49,715 nucleotides of DNA from a virus (IMGVR_UViG_2851949629_000006:1-49715), one strand, 5' to 3'. Counted from the first letter of the stretch, positions 1-49,715 are shown. Made by a program: numbers and translations. Notes: generated by a model not told the origin, from the letters alone.

Positions 1-1257
1 GTGCTTACCGATACAAAATTAAAAAACCTCAAGCCGCAGGACAAACTGTACAAGGTCTCCGATCGTGACGGGCTGTATGTAGCTGTGCTTACGTCAGGCA
101 CGGTCTCGTTTCGCTATGACTACCGTATCAACGGTCGCCGCGAAACACTGGTAATCGGGCAGTATGGGCGTGACGGTATCAGCCTGGCAGAAGCGCGAGA
201 AGAACTGATTGCTGCAAAGAAGCTGCTTAAAGCAGGCCAGTCACCGGCTGCGGCTAAACGTGACGGTATCAAAAAGATTCGTGGTGCCGAGACGTTTGCG
301 GTACATACCGACAGTTATATGAAACACGTCATCCTGGCTGACAGTACCCGCGCAATGAAACAGGCGGTGATCGACCGTGACATACTTCCGGTTCTTGGCA
401 ATAAAATGATGGCTGAAATTACCACATCGATGGTTCGTGATTTGTGTGACCGGATTGTCGAACGCGGTGGCCGGGCAACAGCAGTGCAGGCCAGGGAGAT
501 CATCAGTAGCGTATACCGTCACGCCAATGACCGTGGTCATGGTTTGTTTAATCCTGCGGCTGACATTAAACCTTCGTCTATCGCCATATTTAAACCACGA
601 GAGCGAACACTGACACCAGAAGAAATTGGCCTGTTCTTCCGCACGCTGGATGCCATTGGTGCTATGGGCACTATGAAAATGGCTTTAAAACTGGTGCTTA
701 TCACTATGGTTCGTAAGGGCGAATTCACCAATGCAACGTGGGATGAAATAGATTTTAAAAAATGGACATGGACAATTCCTTCAGACCGCATGAAGGGAAG
801 CCGGGCGCACGTTATTTACCTGCCTAAACAGGCACAGGATATATTGGTTGGGTTGCAGATGTGCGCTGGTGGAAGTGAATATCTGGTTCCTGGTCGTTAC
901 AATTTCCGGAAGCCATTATCTAATGCCGCGCTGAACTCTCTGATCGACAGAACGGTGAAAATAATAAATGAAGATGGTGAGCATATTCAGGGCTTCACCG
1001 TACACGATATGCGCCGTACAGCCAGTACGTTGTTGCATGAGGCTGGTTATCCTTCAGACTGGATTGAAAAGGCTCTGGCACATGAGCAGAAAGGTGTGCG
1101 CGCCGTATATAACAAAGCGGAATACGCCAGACAGCGCGCCTACATGTTGCAGCAGTGGGCCGATATGATTGATTCCTGGATTAACGGGGAGCATACGGAT
1201 CTGATTCCGTTCTCCCCGTCGAAGTTTGAGAAGTGGATGGAAGACAGTAATAAATAA
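1..1257 (+). CDS. P4-type tyrosine integrase; 5' end probably cut by the window edge (ORF opens with GTG at position 1)
   Basis: N-terminal LTDTKLKNLKP...FRYDYR arm-binding-like region and C-terminal HDMRRTAST (H-x-x-R) plus downstream Tyr, as in P4-like integrases. Converges on the phosphatase remnant. Confidence 0.8.
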   Translation: MLTDTKLKNLKPQDKLYKVSDRDGLYVAVLTSGTVSFRYDYRINGRRETLVIGQYGRDGISLAEAREELIAAKKLLKAGQSPAAAKRDGIKKIRGAETFAVHTDSYMKHVILADSTRAMKQAVIDRDILPVLGNKMMAEITTSMVRDLCDRIVERGGRATAVQAREIISSVYRHANDRGHGLFNPAADIKPSSIAIFKPRERTLTPEEIGLFFRTLDAIGAMGTMKMALKLVLITMVRKGEFTNATWDEIDFKKWTWTIPSDRMKGSRAHVIYLPKQAQDILVGLQMCAGGSEYLVPGRYNFRKPLSNAALNSLIDRTVKIINEDGEHIQGFTVHDMRRTASTLLHEAGYPSDWIEKALAHEQKGVRAVYNKAEYARQRAYMLQQWADMIDSWINGEHTDLIPFSPSKFEKWMEDSNK

Positions 1258-1259
1258 TT

Positions 1260-1549
1260 CTATCCTTCCTGGACTTTGGTAAGCGTCAGATTTCCGCAGA
1301 ACACTGCGCCGGTGTCGATGTACATCTGGTTTGCATACACCAGTGGGTGATGTGCTGGCGTATGACCGAAGATGAACAAATCGGCACCGGTTATCTCCGA
1401 GACAATACCGTCCTGCGCGTCGCTAACCCGCTCACGATTCCATATCACCATTTCTTCTGGTACTGGCTTATCGAATGCGTATTCGTTGTGCGGGTAGTCT
1501 GCGTGACAGATGACGACCTTCTTATTGCCGGTAACCAGTTCGATAATCA
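1260..1549 (-). pseudogene. C-terminal fragment of a phage Ser/Thr protein phosphatase (lambda PPase-like), separated from its N-terminal part by the IS66 insertion
   Basis: Translation ...[32 protein letters not shown]...[17 protein letters not shown] matches my recollection of the lambda phosphatase C-terminus. Fragment ends exactly at the IS terminus at 1550. Confidence 0.7.
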
Positions 1550-1579
1550 GTAAGCGTCAACGGAGCACCGTATTGACGC

Positions 1580-2113
1580 TTATTTATTAGTGAGTACTAC
1601 GTTCCATGGCAGGAGTTCGTCAACTCGGTTGGAAGGCCATTCCGGCAGTACGCTCAGGATATGGCGCAGATACGCTTCCGGATCGATACCATTCAACCGG
1701 CAGGTGCCGATCAGCCCGTACAACAGTGCACCACGCTCGCCGCCGTGATCGCTACCGAAGAACACGTAATTTTTCTTTCCGAGACAGACTGCACGAAGCG
1801 CTCTTTCCGCTGTGTTATTGTCCGCCTCCGCCAGACCGTCATCACAGAAGTTGCACAACGCAACCCAGTGCTTCCTGATATACCGGAACGCATCTCTCAG
1901 ACGGCATTTTTTCGATAACGTGTGTTCTTTCTCCTGCATCAGCTTATACAGGGAAGTCAGTAGCGGTTTACTCTGCATTTGCCTGACCGCCAGGCGTTCA
2001 GACACCGGCAACCCGCGTATTTCGTGCTCAATGGCGTACAGTTCGCCGATTAGTTTCAGTGCTTCTTCCGCCGTCGCGCTTTTGGTACTGATATATACAT
2101 CGTGGATTTTGCG
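1580..2113 (-). pseudogene. tnpC: IS66 transposase TnpC, C-terminal fragment of copy 3 (cut by copy 2 insertion)
   Basis: ORF translation aligns with the C-terminal ~140 aa of the full 537-aa TnpC but with substitutions; reading frame runs up to the copy-2 terminus at 2114. Confidence 0.75.
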
Positions 2114-2143
2114 GTAAGCGTTAACGGAGTGCCGTATTGACGC

Positions 2144-3757
2144 TTATTTATTGGTGAGTACTACGTTCCATGGCAGGAGTTCGTCAACTCGGTTGGAAGG
2201 CCATTCCGGCAGTACGCTCAGGATATGGCGCAGATACGCTTCCGGATCGATACCGTTCAGTCGGCAGGTGCTGATCAGCCCGTACAACAGTGCTCCTCGC
2301 TCGCCGCCGTGATCGCTGCCGAAGAACATAAAGTTTTTCTTTCCGAGACAGACTGCACGAAGCGCTCTTTCCGCAGCATTATTATCCGCCTCCGCCAGAC
2401 CGTCATCACTGTAATAACAGAGGGCATCCCACTGATTCAGTACATAGCTGAACGCTTCGCCCAGTCTGGATTTTTTCGACAGCGTACCATTCTTCTCCAC
2501 CATCCATTCATGCAGCGACGTCAGTAACACTTTGCTTCGCTGCTGCCTGACGGCAAGACGCTCTGACTCCGGTAATCCCCGTATTTCATCCTCGATGGCG
2601 TACAGTTCACTGATTCGCTTCAGGGCTTCTTCTGCCGTCGCACTTTTGCTGCTGATGTATACATCGTGGATTTTTCGCCGGGCATGGGCCCAGCACGCAA
2701 CTTCTGTCAGTGCACCACCTTCACGTTCTGCACTGAACAACCTGTCGTAACCTGTGAACGCATCCGCCTGCAGGATACCCCGGAAGGGGCGGAGGTGTTG
2801 CTCCGGGTGTTTCCCCTGCCGGTTCGGCGAGTACGCGAACCAGACCGCTGGAGGAGATGACGAACCCACATTGCGATCATCCCGGACATACGTCCAGATA
2901 CGCCCTGTTTTCGCCTTTTTCTGACCCGGTGCCAGTACCTTTACCGGTGTGTCATCAGTGTGAACCTTGCGGGTGTTCATTACATAACGGTACAGGGCAT
3001 CATTCACCGGTGTCATTAACTGGCAGCACGCGTCAACCCAGTTGGAGAGTAAGGCCCGGCTCAGTTCGACACCCTGGCGGGCAAAGATTTCACTCTGACG
3101 ATACAGTGGCAGATGTTCGCAGTATTTTCCCGTTAACACGCGGGCAAGTAATCCGGGGCCCGCGATACCACGCTCTATCGGGCGGGACGGCGCCGGTGCT
3201 TCAACAATACAGTCACATTTTGTACAGGCTTTTTTTACCCGTTCTGTGCGGATCACTTTCAGGGCACTGCTCACCAGTTCCAGCTGTTCAGCGCTGACTT
3301 CCCCCAGATAATCCAGCTCACCGCCACACTCCGGGCAACAGCTTTCTTCTGGCTCCAGGCGGTGTATTTCACGGGGAAGGTGTGCCGGTAACGGACGACG
3401 ATGGCGCGACTGTCGCAACTGGCGGGGAACCTGAGGATCGTCTTCCCGCCCACTGTAACGATCGCTGTCCTGTTCACGTTGTTTCAGCAGAGCCTCAGCC
3501 AGTTCAACTTCACGACGCAGTTTTTCAGAACGGGTACCGAACAGCATCCGGCGCAGTTTTTCTATCTGAGCCCGCAGATGTTCTATTTCCCGTTCATCTT
3601 CTTCGATCTTTTCTTCGGCACGTGTCAGTGCAGAGCGCAGGAAGGCTTCCGTCTCTTCAACCAGACTCAGTTGCTGGTCTTTCTGACGGAGGGCTTCAGC
3701 CTGCTCAGAGAGCAACCTTTCCAGCTCTGCGATGCGAATGAGGTATTTCTGACTCAT
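2144..3757 (-). CDS. tnpC: IS66 transposase TnpC (copy 2), 537 aa
   Basis: Full-length ORF; translation identical to the copy-1 TnpC; coiled-coil N-terminus, CxxC zinc motif and DDE-type core typical of IS66 TnpC. Confidence 0.85.
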   Translation of the reverse strand: MSQKYLIRIAELERLLSEQAEALRQKDQQLSLVEETEAFLRSALTRAEEKIEEDEREIEHLRAQIEKLRRMLFGTRSEKLRREVELAEALLKQREQDSDRYSGREDDPQVPRQLRQSRHRRPLPAHLPREIHRLEPEESCCPECGGELDYLGEVSAEQLELVSSALKVIRTERVKKACTKCDCIVEAPAPSRPIERGIAGPGLLARVLTGKYCEHLPLYRQSEIFARQGVELSRALLSNWVDACCQLMTPVNDALYRYVMNTRKVHTDDTPVKVLAPGQKKAKTGRIWTYVRDDRNVGSSSPPAVWFAYSPNRQGKHPEQHLRPFRGILQADAFTGYDRLFSAEREGGALTEVACWAHARRKIHDVYISSKSATAEEALKRISELYAIEDEIRGLPESERLAVRQQRSKVLLTSLHEWMVEKNGTLSKKSRLGEAFSYVLNQWDALCYYSDDGLAEADNNAAERALRAVCLGKKNFMFFGSDHGGERGALLYGLISTCRLNGIDPEAYLRHILSVLPEWPSNRVDELLPWNVVLTNK

Positions 3758-3787
3758 GACCGTTTTTATAATGCGGTCAGGAGTTTT

Positions 3788-4070
3788 TTACAACATTGTC
3801 AGTGAGTTACGGCTGGATGTTTTTGGCTGACGCCAGTCCAGCTTATCGAGGAGCATTGCCAGTTGCGAGCGGGTAATGGATACCTTGCCGTCACGTACCG
3901 CAGGCCAGATAAACTGGCCTTCCTCCAGGCGTTTGGTGAACAGGCACAGACCATCAGCATCAGCCCAAAGAATTTTGACGGTGTCACCCCGTCGGCCACG
4001 GAAGATAAACAGGTGACCGGAGAAGGGATTATCATTCAGCACATGTTGTACCTGTTCTCCCAGTCCGTTG
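3788..4070 (-). pseudogene. tnpB: IS66 TnpB (orfB) of copy 2, C-terminal part, cut by copy 1
   Basis: Translation matches residues ~34-116 of intact TnpB (5745-6095); N-terminal remainder is at 6603-6678. Confidence 0.75.
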
Positions 4071-4100
4071 GTAAGCGTTAACGGAGTGCCGTATTGACGC

Positions 4101-5714
4101 TTATTTATTGGTGAGTACTACGTTCCATGGCAGGAGTTCGTCAACTCGGTTGGAAGGCCATTCCGGCAGTACGCTCAGGATATGGCGCAGATACGCTTCC
4201 GGATCGATACCGTTCAGTCGGCAGGTGCTGATCAGCCCGTACAACAGTGCTCCTCGCTCGCCGCCGTGATCGCTGCCGAAGAACATAAAGTTTTTCTTTC
4301 CGAGACAGACTGCACGAAGCGCTCTTTCCGCAGCATTATTATCCGCCTCCGCCAGACCGTCATCACTGTAATAACAGAGGGCATCCCACTGATTCAGTAC
4401 ATAGCTGAACGCTTCGCCCAGTCTGGATTTTTTCGACAGCGTACCATTCTTCTCCACCATCCATTCATGCAGCGACGTCAGTAACACTTTGCTTCGCTGC
4501 TGCCTGACGGCAAGACGCTCTGACTCCGGTAATCCCCGTATTTCATCCTCGATGGCGTACAGTTCACTGATTCGCTTCAGGGCTTCTTCTGCCGTCGCAC
4601 TTTTGCTGCTGATGTATACATCGTGGATTTTTCGCCGGGCATGGGCCCAGCACGCAACTTCTGTCAGTGCACCACCTTCACGTTCTGCACTGAACAACCT
4701 GTCGTAACCTGTGAACGCATCCGCCTGCAGGATACCCCGGAAGGGGCGGAGGTGTTGCTCCGGGTGTTTCCCCTGCCGGTTCGGCGAGTACGCGAACCAG
4801 ACCGCTGGAGGAGATGACGAACCCACATTGCGATCATCCCGGACATACGTCCAGATACGCCCTGTTTTCGCCTTTTTCTGACCCGGTGCCAGTACCTTTA
4901 CCGGTGTGTCATCAGTGTGAACCTTGCGGGTGTTCATTACATAACGGTACAGGGCATCATTCACCGGTGTCATTAACTGGCAGCACGCGTCAACCCAGTT
5001 GGAGAGTAAGGCCCGGCTCAGTTCGACACCCTGGCGGGCAAAGATTTCACTCTGACGATACAGTGGCAGATGTTCGCAGTATTTTCCCGTTAACACGCGG
5101 GCAAGTAATCCGGGGCCCGCGATACCACGCTCTATCGGGCGGGACGGCGCCGGTGCTTCAACAATACAGTCACATTTTGTACAGGCTTTTTTTACCCGTT
5201 CTGTGCGGATCACTTTCAGGGCACTGCTCACCAGTTCCAGCTGTTCAGCGCTGACTTCCCCCAGATAATCCAGCTCACCGCCACACTCCGGGCAACAGCT
5301 TTCTTCTGGCTCCAGGCGGTGTATTTCACGGGGAAGGTGTGCCGGTAACGGACGACGATGGCGCGACTGTCGCAACTGGCGGGGAACCTGAGGATCGTCT
5401 TCCCGCCCACTGTAACGATCGCTGTCCTGTTCACGTTGTTTCAGCAGAGCCTCAGCCAGTTCAACTTCACGACGCAGTTTTTCAGAACGGGTACCGAACA
5501 GCATCCGGCGCAGTTTTTCTATCTGAGCCCGCAGATGTTCTATTTCCCGTTCATCTTCTTCGATCTTTTCTTCGGCACGTGTCAGTGCAGAGCGCAGGAA
5601 GGCTTCCGTCTCTTCAACCAGACTCAGTTGCTGGTCTTTCTGACGGAGGGCTTCAGCCTGCTCAGAGAGCAACCTTTCCAGCTCTGCGATGCGAATGAGG
5701 TATTTCTGACTCAT
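4101..5714 (-). CDS. tnpC: IS66 transposase TnpC (copy 1), 537 aa
   Basis: Intact ORF, identical to 2144-3757. Confidence 0.85.
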   Translation of the reverse strand: MSQKYLIRIAELERLLSEQAEALRQKDQQLSLVEETEAFLRSALTRAEEKIEEDEREIEHLRAQIEKLRRMLFGTRSEKLRREVELAEALLKQREQDSDRYSGREDDPQVPRQLRQSRHRRPLPAHLPREIHRLEPEESCCPECGGELDYLGEVSAEQLELVSSALKVIRTERVKKACTKCDCIVEAPAPSRPIERGIAGPGLLARVLTGKYCEHLPLYRQSEIFARQGVELSRALLSNWVDACCQLMTPVNDALYRYVMNTRKVHTDDTPVKVLAPGQKKAKTGRIWTYVRDDRNVGSSSPPAVWFAYSPNRQGKHPEQHLRPFRGILQADAFTGYDRLFSAEREGGALTEVACWAHARRKIHDVYISSKSATAEEALKRISELYAIEDEIRGLPESERLAVRQQRSKVLLTSLHEWMVEKNGTLSKKSRLGEAFSYVLNQWDALCYYSDDGLAEADNNAAERALRAVCLGKKNFMFFGSDHGGERGALLYGLISTCRLNGIDPEAYLRHILSVLPEWPSNRVDELLPWNVVLTNK

Positions 5715-5744
5715 GACCGTTTTTATAATGCGGTCAGGAGTTTT

Positions 5745-6095
5745 TTACAACATTGTCAGTGAGTTACGGCGGGATGTTTTTGGCTGACGCCAGTCCAGTT
5801 TATCGAGGAGCATTGCCAGTTGCGAGCGGGTAATGGATACCTTGCCGTCACGTACCGCAGGCCAGATAAACTGGCCTTCCTCCAGGCGTTTGGTGAACAG
5901 GCACAGACCATCAGCATCAGCCCAAAGAATTTTGACGGTGTCACCCCGTCGGCCACGGAAGATAAACAGGTGACCGGAGAAGGGATTATCATTCAGCACA
6001 TGTTGTACCTGTTCTCCCAGTCCGTTGAAGGATTTACGCATATCGGTAACGCCGGCAACGAGCCAGATACGGGTACCTGATGGGAGTGAGATCAT
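5745..6095 (-). CDS. tnpB: IS66 accessory protein TnpB (orfB), copy 1
   Basis: 116-aa ORF between tnpA and tnpC, 4-bp overlap with tnpA; typical IS66 orfB size and position. Confidence 0.8.
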   Translation of the reverse strand: MISLPSGTRIWLVAGVTDMRKSFNGLGEQVQHVLNDNPFSGHLFIFRGRRGDTVKILWADADGLCLFTKRLEEGQFIWPAVRDGKVSITRSQLAMLLDKLDWRQPKTSRRNSLTML

Positions 6096-6517
6096 CTTCC
6101 CCTCCCGGTCAGTTCACGGATCAACACTGTGAGCAGCTCTGGCGATGGATTTTCCAGCGTCATGTTACCGTGACGGAATTCCACCTTGCAGGAACTGGCA
6201 CTGACTCTGGTCTGAGTGGAAGTGGATAAAGACGGCGCAATGGCCGCCACAGGTTCTTTCTGCTCATCCGGCGTTATTTCTACAGGTAATAATTCAACGC
6301 CAGTGTCAGAAGAGGTCGTTACCGGAAGACGCCGCGAAACACGCCCTTCGTTCTGCCAGAGCCTGAGCCATTTGAAAATAACATTATCATTGACGCCATT
6401 TTCACGTGCAATCTGTGCAACACAAGCTCCAGGTTGTGATGCCAGTTCCACCATACGAAGTTTGAATTCATTCGAATAGTTTTTACGAGGTTCTTTTCGC
6501 CAGTCCTGTAATTCCAT
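6092..6517 (-). CDS. tnpA: IS66 accessory protein TnpA (orfA), copy 1
   Basis: 141-aa ORF with a helix-turn-helix region (NEFKLRMVELASQPGACVAQIARENGV); first gene of the IS66 operon. Confidence 0.8.
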   Translation of the reverse strand: MELQDWRKEPRKNYSNEFKLRMVELASQPGACVAQIARENGVNDNVIFKWLRLWQNEGRVSRRLPVTTSSDTGVELLPVEITPDEQKEPVAAIAPSLSTSTQTRVSASSCKVEFRHGNMTLENPSPELLTVLIRELTGRGR

Positions 6518-6602
6518 ACTTAGATGTCCGTCTATATCAGATGGGCGTCTAAGTTACCAATTCTCGTCTGATGGCTACATACGGCGGTCAGTTTACGCTT
6601 AC

Positions 6603-6678
6603 GTCCGTTGAAGGATTTACGCATATCGGTAACGCCGGCAACGAGCCAGATACGGGTACCTGATGGGAGTGAGATCAT
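6603..6678 (-). pseudogene. tnpB: IS66 TnpB (orfB) of copy 2, N-terminal 25 codons, continues at 3788-4070
   Basis: Reverse complement encodes MISLPSGTRIWLVAGVTDMRKSFNG, identical to the TnpB N-terminus; interrupted at the GTCCGTTG duplication. Confidence 0.75.
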
Positions 6679-7100
6679 CTTCCCCTCCCGGTCAGTTCAC
6701 GGATCAACACTGTGAGCAGCTCTGGCGATGGATTTTCCAGCGTCATGTTACCGTGACGGAATTCCACCTTGCAGGAACTGGCACTGACTCTGGTCTGAGT
6801 GGAAGTGGATAAAGACGGCGCAATGGCCGCCACAGGTTCTTTCTGCTCATCCGGCGTTATTTCTACAGGTAATAATTCAACGCCAGTGTCAGAAGAGGTC
6901 GTTACCGGAAGACGCCGCGAAACACGCCCTTCGTTCTGCCAGAGCCTGAGCCATTTGAAAATAACATTATCATTGACGCCATTTTCACGTGCAATCTGTG
7001 CAACACAAGCTCCAGGTTGTGATGCCAGTTCCACCATACGAAGTTTGAATTCATTCGAATAGTTTTTACGAGGTTCTTTTCGCCAGTCCTGTAATTCCAT
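6675..7100 (-). CDS. tnpA: IS66 accessory protein TnpA (orfA), copy 2
   Basis: Identical translation to 6092-6517. Confidence 0.8.
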   Translation of the reverse strand: MELQDWRKEPRKNYSNEFKLRMVELASQPGACVAQIARENGVNDNVIFKWLRLWQNEGRVSRRLPVTTSSDTGVELLPVEITPDEQKEPVAAIAPSLSTSTQTRVSASSCKVEFRHGNMTLENPSPELLTVLIRELTGRGR

Positions 7101-7185
7101 ACTTAGATGTCCGTCTATATCAGATGGGCGTCTAAGTTACCAATTCTCGTCTGATGGCTACATACGGCGGTCAGTTTACGCTTAC

Positions 7186-8273
7186 ATTTTGCGCCGCGCA
7201 TGAGCCCAGCATCCTGCTTCCGTCAACGCGCCGCCTTCACGTTCGGCACTGAACAGCCGATCGTAACCTGCGAACGCATCTGCCTGCAGGATACCCCGGA
7301 AGGGACGAAGGTGTTGCTCCGGATGTTTACCCTGATGGTCCGGTGAGTAGGCGAACCAGACCGCCGGAGGTTCTGGCGAACCGGCATTTCGGTCATCCCG
7401 GACATACGTCCAGATATATCCTGTTTTCGCCTTCTTCCTGCCCGGTGCCAGTACTTTTACTGGTGTGTCATCAGTGTGAACCTTGCGGGTGTTCATCACA
7501 TAACTGTACAGGGCATCATTCAGCGGAGTCATTAACTGGCAGCACGCATCAACCCAGTTGGAGAGTAAGGCACGGCTCAGTTCGACACCCTGGCGGGCAA
7601 AGATTTCACTCTGACGATACAGTGGCAGGTGTTCGCAGTATTTTCCCGTTAACACGCGGGCAAGTAACCCCGGGCCCGCGATACCACGCTCTATCGGACG
7701 GGATGGTGCCGGTGCTTCAACGATGCAGTCACATTTTGTACAGGCTTTTTTTACCCGTTCTGTGCGGATCACTTTCAGGGCGCTGCTCACCAGCTCCAGT
7801 TGTTCTGCGCTGACTTCCCCCAGATAATCCAGCTCACCGCCACACTCCGGGCAACAGCTTTCTTCAGGCTCCAGGCGGTATATTTCACGGGGGAGATGTG
7901 CCGGTAACGGACGACGATGGCGCGACTGTCGCAACTGGCGGGGAACCAGCGGGTCATCCTCACGCCCACTGTAACGATCGCTTTCCTGCTCGCGTTGTTT
8001 CAGCAGGACTTCAGCCTGTTCAACCTCACTACGCAGTTTTTCAGAACGGGTTCCGAACAGCATCCGGCGCAGTTTTTCTATCTGAGCCCGCAGATGCTCT
8101 ATTTCTCGCTCATCTTCTTCGATCTTTTCTTCGGCACGTGCCAGTGCAGAGCGCAGGAAGGCCTCCGTCTCTTCAACCAGACTCAGTTGCTGGTCTTTCT
8201 GACGGAGGGCTTCAGCCTGCTCAGAGAGCAGCCTTTCCAGCTCAGCGATGCGAATGAGGTATTTCTGACCCAT
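7186..8273 (-). pseudogene. tnpC: IS66 transposase TnpC of copy 3, N-terminal ~360 codons (cut by copy 2)
   Basis: Translation MGQKYLIRIAELERLL... is a diverged homolog of copy 1/2 TnpC; ORF runs into the copy-2 terminus and stops 4 nt inside it. Confidence 0.75.
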
Positions 8274-8303
8274 GGCCGTTTTTATAATCCGGCCCGGCGT
8301 TTT

Positions 8304-8654
8304 TTACAACATTGTCAGTGCGTTAAGGCGGGATGTTTTTGGCTGACGCCAGTCCAGCTTATCGAGGAGCATTGCCAGTTGCGAGCGGGTAATGGATATC
8401 TTACCGTCATGCACCGCAGGCCAGATAAACTGACCTTCCTCAAGGCGTTTGGTGAACAGGCACAGACCATCAGCATCAGCCCACAGGATTTTAATCGTGT
8501 CTCCCCGTCGGCCACGGAAGATAAACAGGTGACCGGAGAAGGGGTTATCATCCAGCACATGCTGTATCTGCTCCCCCAGACCGTTGAAGGATTTACGCAT
8601 ATCAGTAACGCCGGCAACGAGCCAGATACGGGTACCTGATGGGAGTGAAATCAT
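8304..8654 (-). CDS. tnpB: IS66 accessory protein TnpB (orfB), copy 3
   Basis: 116-aa ORF, diverged homolog of copy-1 TnpB. Confidence 0.8.
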   Translation of the reverse strand: MISLPSGTRIWLVAGVTDMRKSFNGLGEQIQHVLDDNPFSGHLFIFRGRRGDTIKILWADADGLCLFTKRLEEGQFIWPAVHDGKISITRSQLAMLLDKLDWRQPKTSRLNALTML

Positions 8655-9088
8655 CGTCCCCTCCCGGTCAGCTCACGGATCAACACCGTGAGCAGCTCTG
8701 GTGAAGGATTTTCCAGCATCATTTTACCGTAATGGAATTCCACATGGCAGGAAGCTGCACAAGCAACTGATAATGCCTCCGGAGCAGGAGCATCTGTAGC
8801 ACAGCGCGGGGTGTCGATAAGTTCCACTGGAACCAGAGTCGGAGAGGCCGGAAAAGATTGTGATACTGTAGGGCCTACAATAGTTGGAGGCATTCTACGA
8901 GAAATACGTCCTTCTCTTTGCCAGAGGCGTAGCCATTTAAAAATCAGGTTGTTATCAACGCCATGTTCCCGGGCCAGTTGTGCAACATTGGCATTTGGTT
9001 TCGAAGCCAGTTCAACCATATGAAGTTTAAATTCATTAGAAAATATCCGGCGGGTTCCGGAGCGCCAGTCTGTAGGTTTATCCATCAA
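8651..9088 (-). CDS. tnpA: IS66 accessory protein TnpA (orfA), copy 3
   Basis: 145-aa ORF, diverged homolog of copy-1 TnpA (conserved NEFKL.MVELAS and FKWLRLWQ segments). Confidence 0.8.
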   Translation of the reverse strand: MMDKPTDWRSGTRRIFSNEFKLHMVELASKPNANVAQLAREHGVDNNLIFKWLRLWQREGRISRRMPPTIVGPTVSQSFPASPTLVPVELIDTPRCATDAPAPEALSVACAASCHVEFHYGKMMLENPSPELLTVLIRELTGRGR

Positions 9089-9170
9089 TAGAACTCCGTC
9101 TAATTTAGAAGGAGCTCTAATTTAGTCTGCAAGGAGCAGGTGTTACAGACGGCATTGGCTTTACGCTTAC

Positions 9171-9548
9171 GATAATCATCGGGAGGTTGGTAATCTTTGG
9201 CAGAAGGTATTTGAGTTGCACATCCTGCTCAGAATCAAGTTGGTGCCACCATCCACCGCCGTTTGACATCCAATGTCCGAAACTTCCGCCGTTGACCAGT
9301 GCATCCAGCATCATCTGCTCATGGTTGCCACGAACAGCTCGGAACCACGGCATAGTAATCAAATCCAGGCATTCGACGTTTTCAGCGCCGCGGTCAACAA
9401 GGTCACCAACGGAAATAAGTAAATCGCGCGCCGGGTCGAATGAAACTTTGTCGAGTTCGTTCATCAGCAGCGTGTAGCACCCATGCAGATCGCCGACGAC
9501 GAAGATATTGCACCAGTCAGCGCCATTGATGCGTTGATATAGGTTCAT
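9171..9548 (-). pseudogene. N-terminal fragment of phage Ser/Thr protein phosphatase, target of the IS66 insertion
   Basis: Canonical metallophosphoesterase motifs visible in the translation: [26 protein letters not shown] then runs into IS-derived codons before stopping. Confidence 0.75.
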
Positions 9549-44039: not shown

Positions 44040-46061
44040 ATGACGGTCTCAACCGAAGTTGGCCACAACGAATACACTGGTAACGGCGTTACGACTACAT
44101 TCCCTTATACATTCAGGGTTTTCGATAAATCTGATCTGGTAGTGCAGATAGTTGACCTTGAAGAGAATATCACTGTCCTGGTTCTTGATACCGATTACTC
44201 AGTAACCGGGGTGGGGGGATACAATGGTGGCAATGTAATGCTGAGGACAGCGTTAACTTCTGGTTATCGTATTTTTGTATCGCGTGAGCTGCCTGTTACG
44301 CAGGAAACAGATCTGCGCAATCAGGGAAAGTTTCTGGCAGAGGTGCATGAGGATGCATTTGATAAGCTGACGATGCTTATTCAGCAAGTATTTTATAACC
44401 TGAGCAAGGTAATAAAAGTTCCTGAATCAGGGAACTGGTTGGTTCCAACAATTAGGTTAAGAAAGAATAAAATCTTTGCATGGGACGAAGAGGGAAATCC
44501 AATTGCTGTATCACCTGAATCAGGTAGTGCCTCTGATGTAATGATTGAGCTGGCAAAATCATCCGGGGCTGGGTTGATTGGCACAACGTCGGGGGGGACC
44601 GTTCAATCAGTACTGGATGAGTGTCATGCAAGGCTCATCACATGTGAGCGCAACAGCCGGGTGGAAAATTTTTACACGCTGGCGGAAACCTGCACAGCGG
44701 AGCTTTTATCGCTGAATGCCCCGGAGGCATATGACAAATCCATTACGCTGACGGTCAATGAGGAACTGACCACGGACTATACCGGTCCGGTCACAGGTCA
44801 TTGCAGCATCGGTAATCCGCATAACTACACCATTGCGATGTGTACGAGCACAACTCTGGAATATCAGGTTTCCTCGGTGGTACTGGAGAGTGACGGCACG
44901 TTCAGTTTCGCCAGAAGCTGGACTGGGGCTAAGTCTTTTAAACTGTATCGTACATCAAATAACGGTCTGGCAACCGTCTGGGAAGATCCGCTGTGTATCC
45001 GCTCTTACCGGATGCCATCGGATGCCGGGGATGAAACGGTAAGGGTGATGAAAGACCGTACATACACTTATGATCAGGCGGTGTCAGCTATTGCACTGAT
45101 GGCGCAGGGGAATAGTCAGGTGGAACAGTTTGTCCGTGGTTTGTGCGCGATTGTGGGTAGTGGTGGTAGCGAGGGGAGTGTGCCTTTTTTCGTGAACCGC
45201 ATGTCAGCGCAGACATCGTCACAGTATTACCGGACGGGAAACGCAGCGTGGGTGGCGTATGCGCTGGCGTATTATCTGCAGAAATATCCGGATGGTGAAA
45301 TGGCCGTTGTTGCCCGGGATAAACTAACGCAGTGCGCAGAGTGGATTGAAACGTTCAGAGTAGCAGACAGTGGTGATATTCGTTATGGGTTGTATACATC
45401 CGGTAGCGGACGGTATCTGGATGGCGTCTTTTACCCTGATTTTAAAGCAGACTGGTGCACATCGGAGCACCAGTTTGATTTGTGGTTTCTGTTTGACCTG
45501 ATGGGGCGGGTAGGCTTCACCGGCTACGCTGAAAAGGCGAAAGCCCTGGCGGATGCCATTATGGAAAAGCTGTGGGTGGAGGATGAAGGGCGATTTTATG
45601 CCGGGATGCGAACCACCGGGCCTGACAAGGCCTCACCACTGGACTGTGCAAGCTGGGGCGGGCTGTTTGTGTACAATATCGATATGGAAAAAGCCCGGCG
45701 GTGTTTTACTTACCTGGACAGATTCTGGTACGCCACGCACGATGCGACAGGGTACATGCCTTATCATCCGGAATATGGCTACCCGAATAAACAGCGGGGA
45801 GTCTGGGTGGAGGGCAGTGCAGGCGTGGCATTGCTGGCCCGTAGACTGGGAGATGATGCCACCGCGATGGATATTCTGGCGAGGCTGGCACCACTGCGCA
45901 CACGTTATGGTTACATTGATTCAAGCGATTATCCAGATAATGATGACATGCCGCCGTGGCCTTCTTCCTGCAACACGGCCTGGATGATACTGGCATGCGA
46001 TCCGCAGGGGTTCTGGAACGTTGGGGTAAGTAGTCTGTCTGGACGTTATTATAGGTATTGA
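44040..46061 (+). CDS. tail fibre/tailspike with T7 gp17-like N-terminal adaptor domain and a predicted enzymatic C-terminal domain
   Basis: N-terminal ...VTTTFPYTFRVFDKSDLVVQIVD...ITVLVLDTDYSVTG parallels the T7 gp17 N-terminus (...DFNIPFEYLARKFVVVTLIG...KVLTINTDYRF). C-terminal ~400 aa is helix-rich with Trp/Tyr/Asp/Glu-rich segments, suggesting an alpha/alpha-barrel glycosidase rather than a beta-helix. Confidence 0.55.
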   Translation: MTVSTEVGHNEYTGNGVTTTFPYTFRVFDKSDLVVQIVDLEENITVLVLDTDYSVTGVGGYNGGNVMLRTALTSGYRIFVSRELPVTQETDLRNQGKFLAEVHEDAFDKLTMLIQQVFYNLSKVIKVPESGNWLVPTIRLRKNKIFAWDEEGNPIAVSPESGSASDVMIELAKSSGAGLIGTTSGGTVQSVLDECHARLITCERNSRVENFYTLAETCTAELLSLNAPEAYDKSITLTVNEELTTDYTGPVTGHCSIGNPHNYTIAMCTSTTLEYQVSSVVLESDGTFSFARSWTGAKSFKLYRTSNNGLATVWEDPLCIRSYRMPSDAGDETVRVMKDRTYTYDQAVSAIALMAQGNSQVEQFVRGLCAIVGSGGSEGSVPFFVNRMSAQTSSQYYRTGNAAWVAYALAYYLQKYPDGEMAVVARDKLTQCAEWIETFRVADSGDIRYGLYTSGSGRYLDGVFYPDFKADWCTSEHQFDLWFLFDLMGRVGFTGYAEKAKALADAIMEKLWVEDEGRFYAGMRTTGPDKASPLDCASWGGLFVYNIDMEKARRCFTYLDRFWYATHDATGYMPYHPEYGYPNKQRGVWVEGSAGVALLARRLGDDATAMDILARLAPLRTRYGYIDSSDYPDNDDMPPWPSSCNTAWMILACDPQGFWNVGVSSLSGRYYRY

Positions 46062-47476: not shown

Positions 47477-47955
47477 TCTGGGCATTCGTAAAAGCATACC
47501 GGAAACAGTTGATTATCATGGCGGTGCTTGCTGTTCTGGTCATATCAGGAGTTGTTGCCTGGAGTGTACACGGCAGTCGTCAGTACGACGCCGGGTATGC
47601 GCAGGCGAAAGAAGACCGCAAAACCGAAGATGAGAGAATTCGTCAGCACTACGAACAGGAGAAAGCGATCAATGAACGTGAAGCGCAGCAGAGGATCGAC
47701 CAGGCGCGCAATGATGCTCTTGATGCTGCCGCTCGCGCTGGCCGGTTGCAGCAACAGCTCGTTGCCATCCGTGAGCAGCTCAGGCAGTATAACGCCATTG
47801 TCGGCGCTGGGACGTCAGCCGCAGACACCGGAGTTTTGCTTGCCGACGTGCTCAGTAAATCTCTCGAGAGAAACAGACAACTGGCAGAGTATGCTGACCG
47901 GGCAGCCGAAGCCGGAAGAGTCTGTGAAAAACAGTACGACACCCTGACCAGATAG
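47473..47955 (+). CDS. Rz-like inner-membrane spanin (i-spanin)
   Basis: N-terminal TM helix ([18 protein letters not shown]) then a charged coiled-coil periplasmic domain; last gene of the lysis cassette. Confidence 0.65.
47672..47947 (+). CDS. Rz1-like outer-membrane lipoprotein spanin (o-spanin), embedded in the +1 frame of the i-spanin gene
   Basis: Signal peptide with lipobox [26 protein letters not shown], Pro/Ser-rich mature part; AGGAGA RBS 9 nt upstream of the ATG at 47672. Confidence 0.6.
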   Translation: MNVKRSRGSTRRAMMLLMLPLALAGCSNSSLPSVSSSGSITPLSALGRQPQTPEFCLPTCSVNLSRETDNWQSMLTGQPKPEESVKNSTTP

Positions 47956-48104
47956 CATGGCATTTTTCATGGTACTGATTTCCGGTGACGGTATATAAAA
48001 CGGTACGGGAAAAATTGAGATTTGGAAAAATGTTATCACTCAATTGGTTATGGTTATCGTAAATAATTGAGTGGGAATGCTTTGACCCTGCACTATGAAT
48101 GAAC

Positions 48105-48134
48105 AAAACCCTCTGTTACTACAGAGGGTTTTTT
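48105..48134. terminator. bidirectional rho-independent terminator
   Basis: AAAA-CCCTCTG-TTACTAC-CAGAGGG-TTTTTT between the lysis cassette (plus) and the convergent 48173 gene (minus). Confidence 0.7.
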
Positions 48135-48172
48135 ATCTTCAAGAATTATAGGATTGAAGTTACTAACATCGA

Positions 48173-48712
48173 TTAATTAAACCAGCTGTCCGATTTGTTC
48201 TCTTCTGCTTTGCCCACGCTTTTCATCAGATCGCGACCGCCTTCAGTCATATTTCTGTTGGCGTCAGCTTCAGATTGCACCACATCGGTTTGCGCAGCTT
48301 TGTGCTTCAGTTCCTGATCGATAAATTCGTTTTCTCGCTTAACGCGGGCTTCTTCTTTCGCCAGCGCCAGTTTTTGTTTCTGAATCTCTAAGCTGCGTAG
48401 CTCATCTTCATAACTTTGATCGCGTTTTTTGTCCGCAGAGGCTTCGGCGTCCAGTTTATCCTGACGAGCTTTCTTATTTGCCGCTGCCGTTGCCGCTCTT
48501 TTGTTAGCGGCGGCCTGGGCATTTGCGCGACGTTGCTTCTCTTGCTGGATTTCCCTGTTGCGCTCCGCGACCCATTCGTCATGCTGCCTTTGCTCTTCAT
48601 TTTTACCTTGCTGTTCCGCTTCTGCGACAGCAGAGAGTTGATCCTGCAATGATGAGGCGATAGCCGGATAGCTTAAGGAGGCTAAGATGGCGCAAAGAAA
48701 AACTTTCTTCAT
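48173..48712 (-). CDS. secreted coiled-coil protein (signal peptide; Lys/Glu/Ala/Gln-rich)
   Basis: N-terminal signal peptide MKKVFLCAILASLSYPAIAS; remainder highly charged and helical. Confidence 0.5.
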   Translation of the reverse strand: MKKVFLCAILASLSYPAIASSLQDQLSAVAEAEQQGKNEEQRQHDEWVAERNREIQQEKQRRANAQAAANKRAATAAANKKARQDKLDAEASADKKRDQSYEDELRSLEIQKQKLALAKEEARVKRENEFIDQELKHKAAQTDVVQSEADANRNMTEGGRDLMKSVGKAEENKSDSWFN

Positions 48713-48727
48713 GACTCCTCCTGATTA

Positions 48728-49231
48728 TTAGCTCTTTTCAGGACATTTGGTATTTGGCTGAATACGCGTTTCGTTATACGTCGTGGTAATAACAACGGCT
48801 AAACCTGTCGTAAACTGGCACTCTTTACCCATCTGGGTAGAGGTATACACTTTGGTGCCTTCCTTATAGGTTAAAGAAACACCTTCCACTAAGGTTTTAT
48901 CATTCACCATAGAACCCGCTGCCGCGCCTACAGCTCCTGCCGTCGTTCCGGAATTGCTGCCAGACCCGACGTTGTGGCCGATAACACCGCCAGCGACTGC
49001 GCCAATAAGCGCGCCGAAGGCTTGTGCGTTCCGTTTATTTTGGGAGTTGTCTACGGCAACTTTTGCGGGAAGAATGGAAATAATATTAACGGTTTTAGTT
49101 TCTTGTTTGGTATTCAGTTGATCGGTTTGATAAACATCGGCAGCATGATCGTCAGCATTTGACTGGCATCCTGCCAGAGTGAATGACGCTAACATTGCCA
49201 CAGGCAGAAGACATTTTTTAAATTTCATCAC
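48728..49231 (-). CDS. glycine-zipper outer-membrane lipoprotein (YcfJ/SlyB-like)
   Basis: Lipobox LAGC after a signal peptide; glycine-zipper segment GALIGAVAGGVIGHNVGSGSNSGTTAGAVGAAAG resembles the YcfJ segment as recalled. Confidence 0.55.
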   Translation of the reverse strand: MMKFKKCLLPVAMLASFTLAGCQSNADDHAADVYQTDQLNTKQETKTVNIISILPAKVAVDNSQNKRNAQAFGALIGAVAGGVIGHNVGSGSNSGTTAGAVGAAAGSMVNDKTLVEGVSLTYKEGTKVYTSTQMGKECQFTTGLAVVITTTYNETRIQPNTKCPEKS

Positions 49232-49538
49232 TATTCCTTGTTATACACATTACGAAAAATAAGACATTTAAGATCATCAAAAGAGGAAAGTAAATGTATT
49301 GCGTATAAAGGGATAGATTAAATTTATTAAAATTCACGCAGGGAATAATTTATAAAAATATATCATTACAACATATATATTAATTTTATATTTATTTCGC
49401 AGCCAAACAGGATAAACATCAGTCAGGATAAAGACGTAAAATTTAAGATGAAAGAATATCTGCCGCTTTGATAATCCCAAACAGCAAAAGCATCCGACAG
49501 CGAAGTGCCGTTATGTTCTGTGAAAGTGGAGAAGGTAA

Positions 49539-49715
49539 CCGCTAACGTTGTACCGGTGATTCGACGGAGAGTGTGGATTGCTGAGCTTCTTTTTTGCTCT
49601 GATGGTGCTGCCAGGCACCGACGGACGAGTAGATAAAACAGCCAAAGAAGAAGATAAAGCTGATGAGCAGTACGATACGGGTCATGCGACTGTTAAATCG
49701 GTGTCGTTTTCGCAT
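49539..49715 (-). CDS. small membrane protein (58 aa)
   Basis: Reverse complement of the window end encodes MRKRHRFNSRMTRIVLLISFIFFFGCFIYSS...; start codon is the last three bases of the window. Confidence 0.4.

What the first reader, a model, noticed from the sequence alone, without database searches (positions are those of the whole stretch)
48173..49450. Secreted coiled-coil protein and glycine-zipper lipoprotein just beyond the lysis cassette, with an AT-rich promoter region
Two convergent-to-phage, signal-peptide-bearing genes follow the lysis terminator, and a strongly AT-rich stretch (49240-49450) lies upstream of them. They may be host genes marking the right prophage boundary, or envelope-modifying cargo. 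No direct repeat marking the attachment site was found in the window, so the boundary is unresolved.
Basis: partly seen in the sequence, partly recalled or inferred. Interest (0 to 1): 0.4.

Follow-up and report, generated by a model that had tools for sequence, protein, structure and literature searches.

The report
Host genes yfgH–yfgI beside prophage end
The two signal-peptide genes are the ordinary E. coli chromosomal genes yfgI and yfgH, lying just outside a phiV10/epsilon15-type prophage whose right end (attR, window 48066-48082) sits at the known guaA attachment site.

Summary
The sequence features are real, but the open question has an ordinary answer. ORF 48173-48712(-) is yfgI (DUF5384, 100% identical to K-12). 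ORF 48728-49231(-) is yfgH, a SlyB-like glycine-zipper outer-membrane lipoprotein. The AT-rich stretch is the yfgG-yfgH intergenic region, base-for-base identical to K-12. This block occurs in 5425 of 5426 complete E. coli genomes, in the order pdeF-yfgG-yfgH-yfgI-guaA.

The prophage is a Uetakevirus (phiV10/epsilon15 type) integrated in the 3' end of guaA. Its published 17-bp core ATTGAGTGGGAATGATT is at 48066-48082 (16/17 match), so phage DNA ends at 48065 and host DNA starts at 48083.

attL is off-window, about 190 bp upstream of the integrase start at position 1, which is why no repeat was seen. The "lysis terminator" (48105-48132) is the host's bidirectional guaA/yfgI terminator.

Minor extras:
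- one point mutation in the attR core;
- a 15-bp in-frame deletion of one GAVGG unit in yfgH;
- an IS66 cluster in the prophage;
- a diverged yfgH-yfgI-like pair that is true cargo on P7/P1-like phage-plasmids.

Already known; low interest.

The parts
47956..48065 (+). Phage-derived P arm of attR, between the Rz/spanin stop codon and the att core. Contains the integrase arm-type site GTGACGGTAT (47985-47994) and two IHF-type sites (about 48034-48076).
   Evidence: Nearly identical to the attP region of phiV10 and well conserved with epsilon15. The site positions were transferred by alignment from the protein_bind features of the epsilon15 record. Absent from K-12 and from the prophage-free genomes L006 and L009.
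48066..48082 (+). attR core ATTGAGTGGGAATGCTT, matching the 17-bp core ATTGAGTGGGAATGATT at 16 of 17 positions. It is the duplicated last codons of guaA (..IEWE*). The guaA stop-codon position reads C instead of A at 48080.
   Evidence: This is the only segment shared by attP, attB, attL and attR in the four-way alignment. The core sequence is published for vB_EcoP_ZX5, phiV10 and epsilon15 (PMC9782041). It occurs once in the window. The C variant is shared by lysogens L005, L007 and L008 and is absent from attB in L006, L009 and K-12.
48083..48172 (.). Host guaA-yfgI intergenic DNA (the B' arm), containing the bidirectional intrinsic terminator.
   Evidence: Identical to K-12.
48105..48132 (.). 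Host bidirectional rho-independent terminator shared by the convergent genes guaA and yfgI. In the lysogen it also faces the phage lysis operon.
   Evidence: Terminator scan. Folding energy -17.8 kcal/mol (+ strand) and -18.6 (- strand), with 0 of 200 shuffles as stable. Identical in K-12.
48173..48712 (-). yfgI: a secreted, highly charged, all-helical periplasmic protein of 179 aa in family DUF5384.
   Evidence: Pfam DUF5384 E=7.5e-62. 100% amino-acid identity to K-12 b2506. Annotated yfgI in all listed E. coli hits. AlphaFold2 predicts a single helix over residues 16-178 with pLDDT 88.
48713..48727 (-). 15-nt yfgH-yfgI spacer carrying the yfgI ribosome-binding site (AGGAGG). The tight spacing suggests one operon.
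   Evidence: Read directly from the sequence. The pair is treated as the yfgHI operon in PMC11619404 and PMC9962212.
48728..49231 (-). yfgH: a SlyB-like glycine-zipper outer-membrane lipoprotein. Here it is 167 aa because of a 15-bp in-frame deletion (one GAVGG unit, junction 48937|48938), plus a V->M change near 48833.
   Evidence: Pfam PF05433. Lipobox LAGC. Full-length alignment to SlyB, PDB 7ojf, E=1.3e-8. Deletion shown.
49232..49541 (-). yfgG-yfgH intergenic region, 30.6% GC.
   Evidence: 100% identical to K-12 and to strain MS 196-1. Lowest-GC region of the window. No consensus sigma-70 site on the minus strand, so promoter function is inferred only.
49495..49510 (-). Weak terminator-like hairpin just downstream of yfgG.
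   Evidence: Pattern scan only. The number of terminator-like sites in the region is not above the shuffle expectation.
49542..49715 (-). yfgG (DUF2633, small membrane protein). Its 5' end is cut by the window edge: the K-12 start is 18 nt further on. One R->C substitution at 49640.
   Evidence: Pfam DUF2633 E=8e-27. Alignment to K-12.
1..1257 (+). Prophage P4-type tyrosine integrase, at the left end of the prophage. attL lies about 190-206 bp upstream, outside the window.
   Evidence: Translation. The identical protein sits 190 bp downstream of the guaA core in six assemblies and in NZ_OZ261667.

Best explanation
The region 48083-49715 is ordinary E. coli chromosome: the guaA-yfgI intergenic terminator, then yfgI, yfgH, the AT-rich yfgG-yfgH intergenic region and yfgG.

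A Uetakevirus-type temperate phage (phiV10/epsilon15/vB_EcoP_ZX5 type) integrated by tyrosine-integrase recombination. The exchange was between its attP core and the identical 17 bp at the 3' end of guaA. This placed the integrase end next to guaA (attL, off-window) and the lysis end next to yfgI. attR consists of the P arm (47956-48065) plus the core (48066-48082).

yfgH and yfgI are therefore neighbours of the prophage by accident of the integration site, not part of it.

Known function of the genes (from the literature): YfgH is a stress-induced outer-membrane lipoprotein of the SlyB kind that stabilises the outer membrane. YfgI is a co-transcribed, exported, long-helix protein of unknown biochemical role; its deletion mutant is sensitive to nalidixic acid.

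Inferred steps:
- The AT-rich intergenic region holds the yfgHI promoter and regulatory sites.
- The host bidirectional terminator stops phage late read-through from running antisense into yfgI.
- The near-identical terminator that the phage carries in its P' arm ends up behind guaA at attL.
For: 1. Conservation. The 1760-bp stretch 47956-49715 matches 5425 of 5426 complete E. coli genomes, always chromosomal, and is annotated yfgI/yfgH/yfgG.
2. Synteny. K-12 has ppk-ppx-pdeF-yfgG-yfgH-yfgI-guaA-guaB.
3. Breakpoint. K-12 homology runs from yfgI through the terminator to 48066 and stops there. Free-phage homology (phiV10, HEMP4, ZX5 and others) runs from the lysis genes to about 48079-48083 and stops there.
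4. Four-way attP/attB/attL/attR alignment. Only ATTGAGTGGGAATGATT is shared by all four. The same core is reported experimentally in PMC9782041.
5. Near-isogenic references. Assemblies with the same rare YfgH variant exist with the prophage (L005, L007, L008) and without it (L006, L009, where guaA is directly next to yfgI).
6. Occupancy. The attB junction is uninterrupted in 4571 of 5426 genomes.
7. Integrase position. The identical integrase lies next to guaA in all six assemblies shown.
8. Protein families.
9. Function: bioRxiv 10.64898/2025.12.22.696046, PMC3219608, PMC3536626.
Against: Nothing contradicts the host assignment. The weak points are:
- attL of this particular genome was not seen, because it lies off-window.
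- The attR core has one mismatch.
- No transcription start or promoter was demonstrated for yfgHI, and the consensus scan found none on that strand.
- The terminator's roles are inferred from structure only.
Confidence: 0.97

Rival explanations
1. yfgI and yfgH are envelope-modifying cargo (morons) carried by this prophage, and the true prophage end lies beyond 49450.
For: The genes sit immediately after the lysis cassette. They encode exported envelope proteins and are preceded by an AT-rich region, as many morons are. A public RefSeq 'phage' record (TL-2011b, NC_019445) annotates them within the phage. A diverged homologous pair is genuine cargo on P7/P1-like phage-plasmids.
Against: The genes lie outside the att core. 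They are present in 5425 of 5426 E. coli genomes, including the 84% with an empty attB. They are present with identical sequence in the prophage-free relatives L006 and L009. They are absent from every free Uetakevirus genome, all of which stop matching at the core. The TL-2011b record simply runs about 3.6 kb into host DNA, as far as pdeF.
Confidence: 0.01
2. The prophage is a locked-in, defective remnant. The attR core mutation (A->C at 48080) and the IS66 cluster have immobilised it, so the boundary is now a fixed chromosomal junction rather than a functional attR.
For: The C variant is shared by all three related lysogens and by none of the 230 complete E. coli genomes that have this type of attR junction; their best identity is 98.8%, meaning one mismatch. 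A cluster of IS66 copies about 7.6 kb long disrupts the phosphatase gene next to int (compared with the intact gene).
Against: The integrase ORF is intact and identical to that of many other lysogens. The P arm, lysis genes and structural genes appear intact. The mismatch is at position 15 of the 17-bp core and may lie outside the strand-exchange overlap. The disrupted phosphatase is probably non-essential. Excision was not tested.
Confidence: 0.3

Closest known systems
attR of Uetakevirus prophages (phiV10, epsilon15, vB_EcoP_ZX5) integrated at the 3' end of guaA
   Same: Same P4-type integrase position. Same 17-bp core at the guaA stop codon. Same P arm, including the integrase arm site and the IHF-type sites annotated in epsilon15. 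Same lysis cassette (two holin-family genes, a GH19 endolysin and Rz/Rz1) abutting attP.
   Different: One base differs in the attR core (48080 C). The tailspike C-terminal part is different, with no Pfam hit. About 7.6 kb of IS66 copies lie near the int end.
E. coli K-12 yfgH (b2505), a SlyB-like glycine-zipper 2TM outer-membrane lipoprotein
   Same: 99% identity, the same lipobox, the same locus, and full-length similarity to SlyB, PDB 7ojf. The literature assigns an outer-membrane stabilising role under envelope stress.
   Different: One GAVGG unit (5 aa) of the second glycine-zipper helix is missing, and there is one V->M change. None of the 20 best-matching complete E. coli genomes carries the deletion (each match spans 1775-1776 bases of the record for the 1760-base query). 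The variant was found in 9 public contigs.
E. coli K-12 yfgI (b2506), DUF5384
   Same: 100% amino-acid identity and the same operon position downstream of yfgH.
   Different: None.
P7 upf50.5/upf50.0 pair on P1/P7-like phage-plasmids
   Same: The same two-gene arrangement, a SlyB-like lipoprotein followed by a DUF5384 protein, with 63% and 47.5% amino-acid identity. Both proteins have signal peptides.
   Different: That pair is true mobile-element cargo, sitting between the ImmI region (c4-icd-ant) and the late LPsit operon of P7. The window's pair is the chromosomal copy, outside the prophage.

Membership tests
Uetakevirus (phiV10/epsilon15-type) prophage junction at guaA | The 17-bp core ATTGAGTGGGAATGATT lies at the phage/host junction and overlaps the guaA stop codon. 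| tested here: met
   Present at 48066-48082 with 16 of 17 matches. The core is published in PMC9782041.
Uetakevirus (phiV10/epsilon15-type) prophage junction at guaA | Phage-side homology ends and host-side homology begins at the core. | tested here: met
   Phage genomes match up to about 48079-48083. K-12 matches from 48066 onward.
Uetakevirus (phiV10/epsilon15-type) prophage junction at guaA | A second core copy (attL) lies between guaA and a P4-type integrase at the other end of the prophage. | not testable with these tools
   The window starts at the integrase start codon, so attL is off-window. In relatives with the identical integrase, the core lies 190 bp upstream of int, at the end of guaA.
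Uetakevirus (phiV10/epsilon15-type) prophage junction at guaA | A P arm carrying the integrase arm-type site and IHF sites. | tested here: met
   GTGACGGTAT at 47985-47994 and the IHF-site regions align with the annotated epsilon15 features. Binding itself was not tested.
Prophage cargo (moron) | The gene lies between attL and attR and travels with the phage genome. | tested here: not met
   The genes lie to the right of attR. They are absent from free phage genomes and present in prophage-free genomes.
DUF5384 (YfgI) | Pfam PF17358 score above the gathering threshold, together with an N-terminal signal peptide. | tested here: met
   208.2 bits against a cut-off of 25. 100% identical to K-12 YfgI.
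SlyB-like glycine-zipper 2TM lipoproteins (YfgH) | A lipobox with an invariant Cys, GxxxG repeats matching PF05433, and full-length similarity to SlyB. | tested here: met
   LAGC with Cys22 and eight GxxxG/A motifs. PF05433 at 35.6 bits against a cut-off of 24.2. SlyB 7ojf E=1.3e-8 over residues 8-159.
SlyB-like glycine-zipper 2TM lipoproteins (YfgH) | Forms oligomeric rings in the outer membrane. | not testable with these tools
   The single-sequence AlphaFold2 model was unusable, pLDDT 39. Ring formation by YfgH is itself only modelled in the literature.
Coiled-coil protein (YfgI) | A regular heptad a/d hydrophobic seam and oligomerisation. | tested here: inconclusive
   One long predicted helix over residues 16-178. 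However, a/d occupancy by LIVMFWY is at most 0.5, and 40% of the mature protein is charged.
Intrinsic (rho-independent) terminator | A GC-rich hairpin followed by a U tract, here on both strands. | tested here: met
   Termination activity was not tested.
Sigma-70 promoter in the AT-rich region | -35 and -10 hexamers on the yfgH strand, or a mapped transcription start. | tested here: not met
   No minus-strand consensus site was found, and the total number of sites is not above shuffles. No transcription-start data were retrieved.

The most novel reading that the evidence does not exclude
YfgH and YfgI form a two-component envelope module: an outer-membrane glycine-zipper ring lipoprotein plus a periplasmic helix about 24 nm long. 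The module exists both as a core chromosomal operon and as mobile cargo on P7/P1-like phage-plasmids.

In this lineage the module has been remodelled by loss of one GAVGG zipper unit, and it sits next to a prophage locked in by an attR core mutation.

The pair's adjacency is conserved at 47-63% identity. The dedicated YfgH preprint never mentions yfgI. Together these make a YfgH-YfgI partnership plausible but untested.
Probability: 0.25. Interest if true: 0.35.

Novelty: already known. Interest (0 to 1): 0.08.

Why it matters
The main value is for annotation. It fixes the right prophage boundary to the base (48065|48066-48082|48083) and removes two host genes from the list of candidate phage cargo.

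It also flags a trap. RefSeq phage record NC_019445 (TL-2011b) contains about 3.6 kb of host DNA, including yfgI, yfgH and yfgG. In addition, YfgH homologues are labelled 'DNA methyltransferase' in several RefSeq phage records. Searches of phage databases can therefore wrongly suggest that these genes are phage-borne.

The biology of the site is already published, and so is the function of YfgH.

Tried and rejected
- Rfam scan of 47800-49715: only a chance sub-threshold hit, so there is no known RNA element in the AT-rich region.
- Promoter scan: no minus-strand hit, and counts equal to shuffles. It can neither confirm nor locate the yfgHI promoter.
Both lie around 0.45-0.55.
- AlphaFold2 single-sequence model of the YfgH variant: pLDDT 39, unusable, so no fold search was run.
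- PDB sequence search with YfgI: no hit.
- NCBIfam: no family for YfgI and only sub-threshold hits for YfgH.
- Search for a second att core in the window with up to 2 mismatches: none.
- I did not scan genome contigs or metagenome contigs. The first holds one genome per species, so it could not give strain-level information.
- The literature on FlhDC, PdhR and SdiA gave only incidental mentions of yfgH regulation. The E. coli yfgHI reporter was not SdiA-regulated.

Full report
**1. Observation**

- On the minus strand, convergent with the phage lysis genes, lie a 179-aa ORF (48173-48712) and a 167-aa ORF (48728-49231).
- The first ORF begins with a Sec-type signal peptide (MKKVFLCAILASLSYPAIA|SS). 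The second has a lipobox, LAGC, with Cys22.
- The stretch 49240-49450 has 24.6% GC. It falls in the only part of the 49.7-kb window (49157-49527) where 211-nt windows drop to 30% GC or below; only 0.1% of all 211-nt windows are as low.
- A strong hairpin with flanking A and T runs lies at 48105-48132. It folds at -17.8 kcal/mol on the + strand and -18.6 on the - strand, and none of 200 shuffles folds as well.

**2. Identity of the genes**

- Pfam assigns the first ORF to DUF5384 (E=7.5e-62) and the second to the Glycine zipper 2TM domain. The partial ORF at the window end (49542-49715) is DUF2633.
- A megablast of 47956-49715 against 5,426 complete E. coli genomes hit 5,425 of them, always on the chromosome, with the annotations yfgI, yfgH and yfgG.
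- In K-12 MG1655 the order is ppk-ppx-pdeF-yfgG-yfgH-yfgI-guaA-guaB, with yfgI and guaA convergent.
- YfgI is 100% identical to K-12 b2506.
- YfgH is 99% identical to K-12, apart from a 15-bp in-frame deletion and one V->M change.
- The 310-bp yfgG-yfgH intergenic region, which contains the AT-rich stretch, is base-for-base identical to K-12.

**3. The prophage and its boundary**

- The lysis cassette consists of Phage_holin_8, Phage_holin_3_7, a GH19 endolysin and the DUF2514 Rz-like spanin. It matches Uetakevirus phages at 94-97% (phiV10, vB_EcoP_ZX5, HEMP4, O157 typing phages) and epsilon15 at 83%.
- All free-phage matches stop at about window 48079-48083.
- Alignment with K-12 shows chromosomal homology running from yfgI leftward, through the terminator, down to 48066. 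There it breaks at the last codons of guaA.
- A four-way alignment was made of the window (attR), phiV10 (attP), K-12 (attB) and an E. coli lysogen (attL). The only segment common to all four is ATTGAGTGGGAATGATT.
- That same 17-mer is reported as the experimentally verified att core of vB_EcoP_ZX5, phiV10 and epsilon15, at the 3' end of guaA and 190 bp upstream of the integrase (PMC9782041).
- In the window it occupies 48066-48082 with one mismatch. Phage DNA therefore ends at 48065 and host-only DNA starts at 48083.
- The 110 bp between the spanin stop codon and the core is the P arm. It aligns with the epsilon15 region annotated with an integrase arm site (GTGACGGTAT, window 47985-47994) and IHF sites.

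**4. Why no direct repeat was found**

- The window begins exactly at the GTG start of the P4-type integrase, so attL lies about 190-206 bp beyond the left edge.
- In six assemblies encoding the identical integrase, and in NZ_OZ261667, the core sits at the end of guaA, 190 bp upstream of int.

**5. Prophage-free references**

- An exact-sequence look-up of the window's unusual 167-aa YfgH found assemblies of the same lineage with the prophage (L005, L007, L008) and without it (L006, L009).
- In the prophage-free ones, guaA follows yfgI directly and attB reads ATTGAGTGGGAATGATT.
- Across complete E. coli genomes the attB junction is uninterrupted in 4,571 of 5,426.

**6. The terminator**

- The hairpin at 48105-48132 lies on the host side of the core and is identical in K-12. 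It is the bidirectional terminator of the convergent genes guaA and yfgI, not a lysis-cassette terminator.
- The phage carries a near-identical stem of its own (ACCCTCTGT...ACAGAGGGT) in the P' arm, annotated as a terminator in phiV10 and epsilon15.
- After integration that copy lies behind guaA at attL, while the host copy faces the lysis operon at attR. The inference is that both junctions stay transcriptionally insulated.

**7. Function of the genes (literature)**

- YfgH is an outer-membrane lipoprotein related to SlyB. Its deletion sensitises cells to SDS/EDTA and is synthetically sick with depletion of lptD or bamA. The gene is strongly induced by outer-membrane stress from a very low basal level (bioRxiv 10.64898/2025.12.22.696046; PMC3219608).
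- I confirmed a full-length sequence alignment of the window's YfgH to SlyB, PDB 7ojf, E=1.3e-8.
- A yfgI deletion mutant showed 7% survival on nalidixic acid (PMC3536626).
- yfgHI is treated as one operon in PMC11619404 and PMC9962212. This is consistent with the 15-nt spacer and its AGGAGG ribosome-binding site.
- AlphaFold2 predicts mature YfgI as one continuous helix over residues 16-178, pLDDT 88. The heptad signal is weak and 40% of the mature residues are charged. 'Long exported helix' is therefore supported, and 'coiled coil' is not shown.
- The promoter role of the AT-rich region is inferred. The consensus scan found nothing on that strand and Rfam found nothing.

**8. The rival reading (cargo) and what feeds it**

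- The cargo reading is refuted for this locus.
- RefSeq phage record NC_019445 (TL-2011b) runs about 3.6 kb into host DNA and lists yfgI, yfgH (labelled 'DNA methyltransferase') and yfgG as phage genes.
- A diverged homologous pair, 63% and 47.5% identical at the amino-acid level, is genuine cargo on P7/P1-like phage-plasmids. In P7 these genes are upf50.5 and upf50.0, between the ImmI region and the LPsit late operon. About 196 PLSDB plasmids carry the diverged DUF5384 homologue.
- This conserved adjacency suggests that YfgH and YfgI work together. That is untested, and the YfgH preprint does not mention yfgI.

**9. Small lineage-specific oddities**

- The attR core has C instead of A at 48080. 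The three related lysogens share this, but none of the 230 complete genomes with this junction type does.
- yfgH lacks one GAVGG unit.
- The prophage phosphatase gene next to int is split by about 7.6 kb of IS66-family copies (compared).
- Together these hint at a decaying prophage, but excision was not testable here.

**10. Verdict**

This is already known and of low interest.

Noticed in passing
window 1549-9116: A cluster of IS66-family copies and fragments. It contains two identical full transposase genes (2144-3757 and 4101-5714), a truncated one (7182-8273) and a fragment (1580-2011). The cluster splits the prophage Metallophos Ser/Thr phosphatase gene; its N-terminal part is at 9117-9548. 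That gene is intact (219 aa) next to the identical integrase in other lysogens.
   Followed up: partly
window 48080: The attR core has C where attP, attB and attL all have A (the guaA stop-codon position). Related lysogens L005, L007 and L008 share the C. None of the 230 complete E. coli genomes with this type of attR junction has it.
   Followed up: partly
window 48937|48938 (yfgH): A 15-bp in-frame deletion removes one GAVGG unit from the second glycine-zipper helix of YfgH (167 aa instead of 172). None of the 20 best-matching complete E. coli genomes carries it. The variant was found in 9 public contigs, both with and without the prophage. The shortened helix is closer in length to SlyB at that position.
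   Followed up: partly
L016 (NC_019445, phage TL-2011b) 4876-8300: This RefSeq phage record extends about 3.6 kb into host chromosome. It lists yfgI, yfgH (labelled 'DNA methyltransferase'), yfgG and part of pdeF as phage features. The same 'DNA methyltransferase' label is attached to YfgH homologues in the P7, SJ46 and RCS47 RefSeq records.
   Followed up: yes
L018 (phage P7, NC_050152) 3476-4540: A diverged yfgH-yfgI-like pair (upf50.5 and upf50.0; 63% and 47.5% amino-acid identity) is carried as true cargo between the ImmI region and the LPsit late operon of P7/P1-like phage-plasmids. About 196 PLSDB plasmids carry the DUF5384 homologue.
   Followed up: partly
L003 (phiV10) 3828-3860 compared with window 48105-48132: The phage P' arm carries its own terminator, with a stem nearly identical to the host guaA/yfgI terminator. 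Integration therefore swaps like for like, and guaA keeps a terminator at attL.
   Followed up: partly
window 44040-46061: The 673-aa tailspike has the epsilon15/phiV10-type N-terminal adaptor but no Pfam hit at all. Its C-terminal receptor-binding or depolymerase part differs from phiV10 and from the endosialidase of the related prophage in strain MS 196-1.
   Followed up: no
window 23624-23700: A tRNA-Arg (anticodon TCT) gene lies on the minus strand inside the prophage.
   Followed up: no
L005-L009, between ppx and yfgG: In the assemblies that share the YfgH variant, pdeF (yfgF) is either called only as fragments (MASE1 281 aa, EAL 263 aa) or not called at all. This suggests pdeF is a pseudogene in this lineage.
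   Followed up: no
window 49640 (yfgG): A single R->C substitution in the small membrane protein YfgG, relative to K-12 and strain MS 196-1.
   Followed up: no
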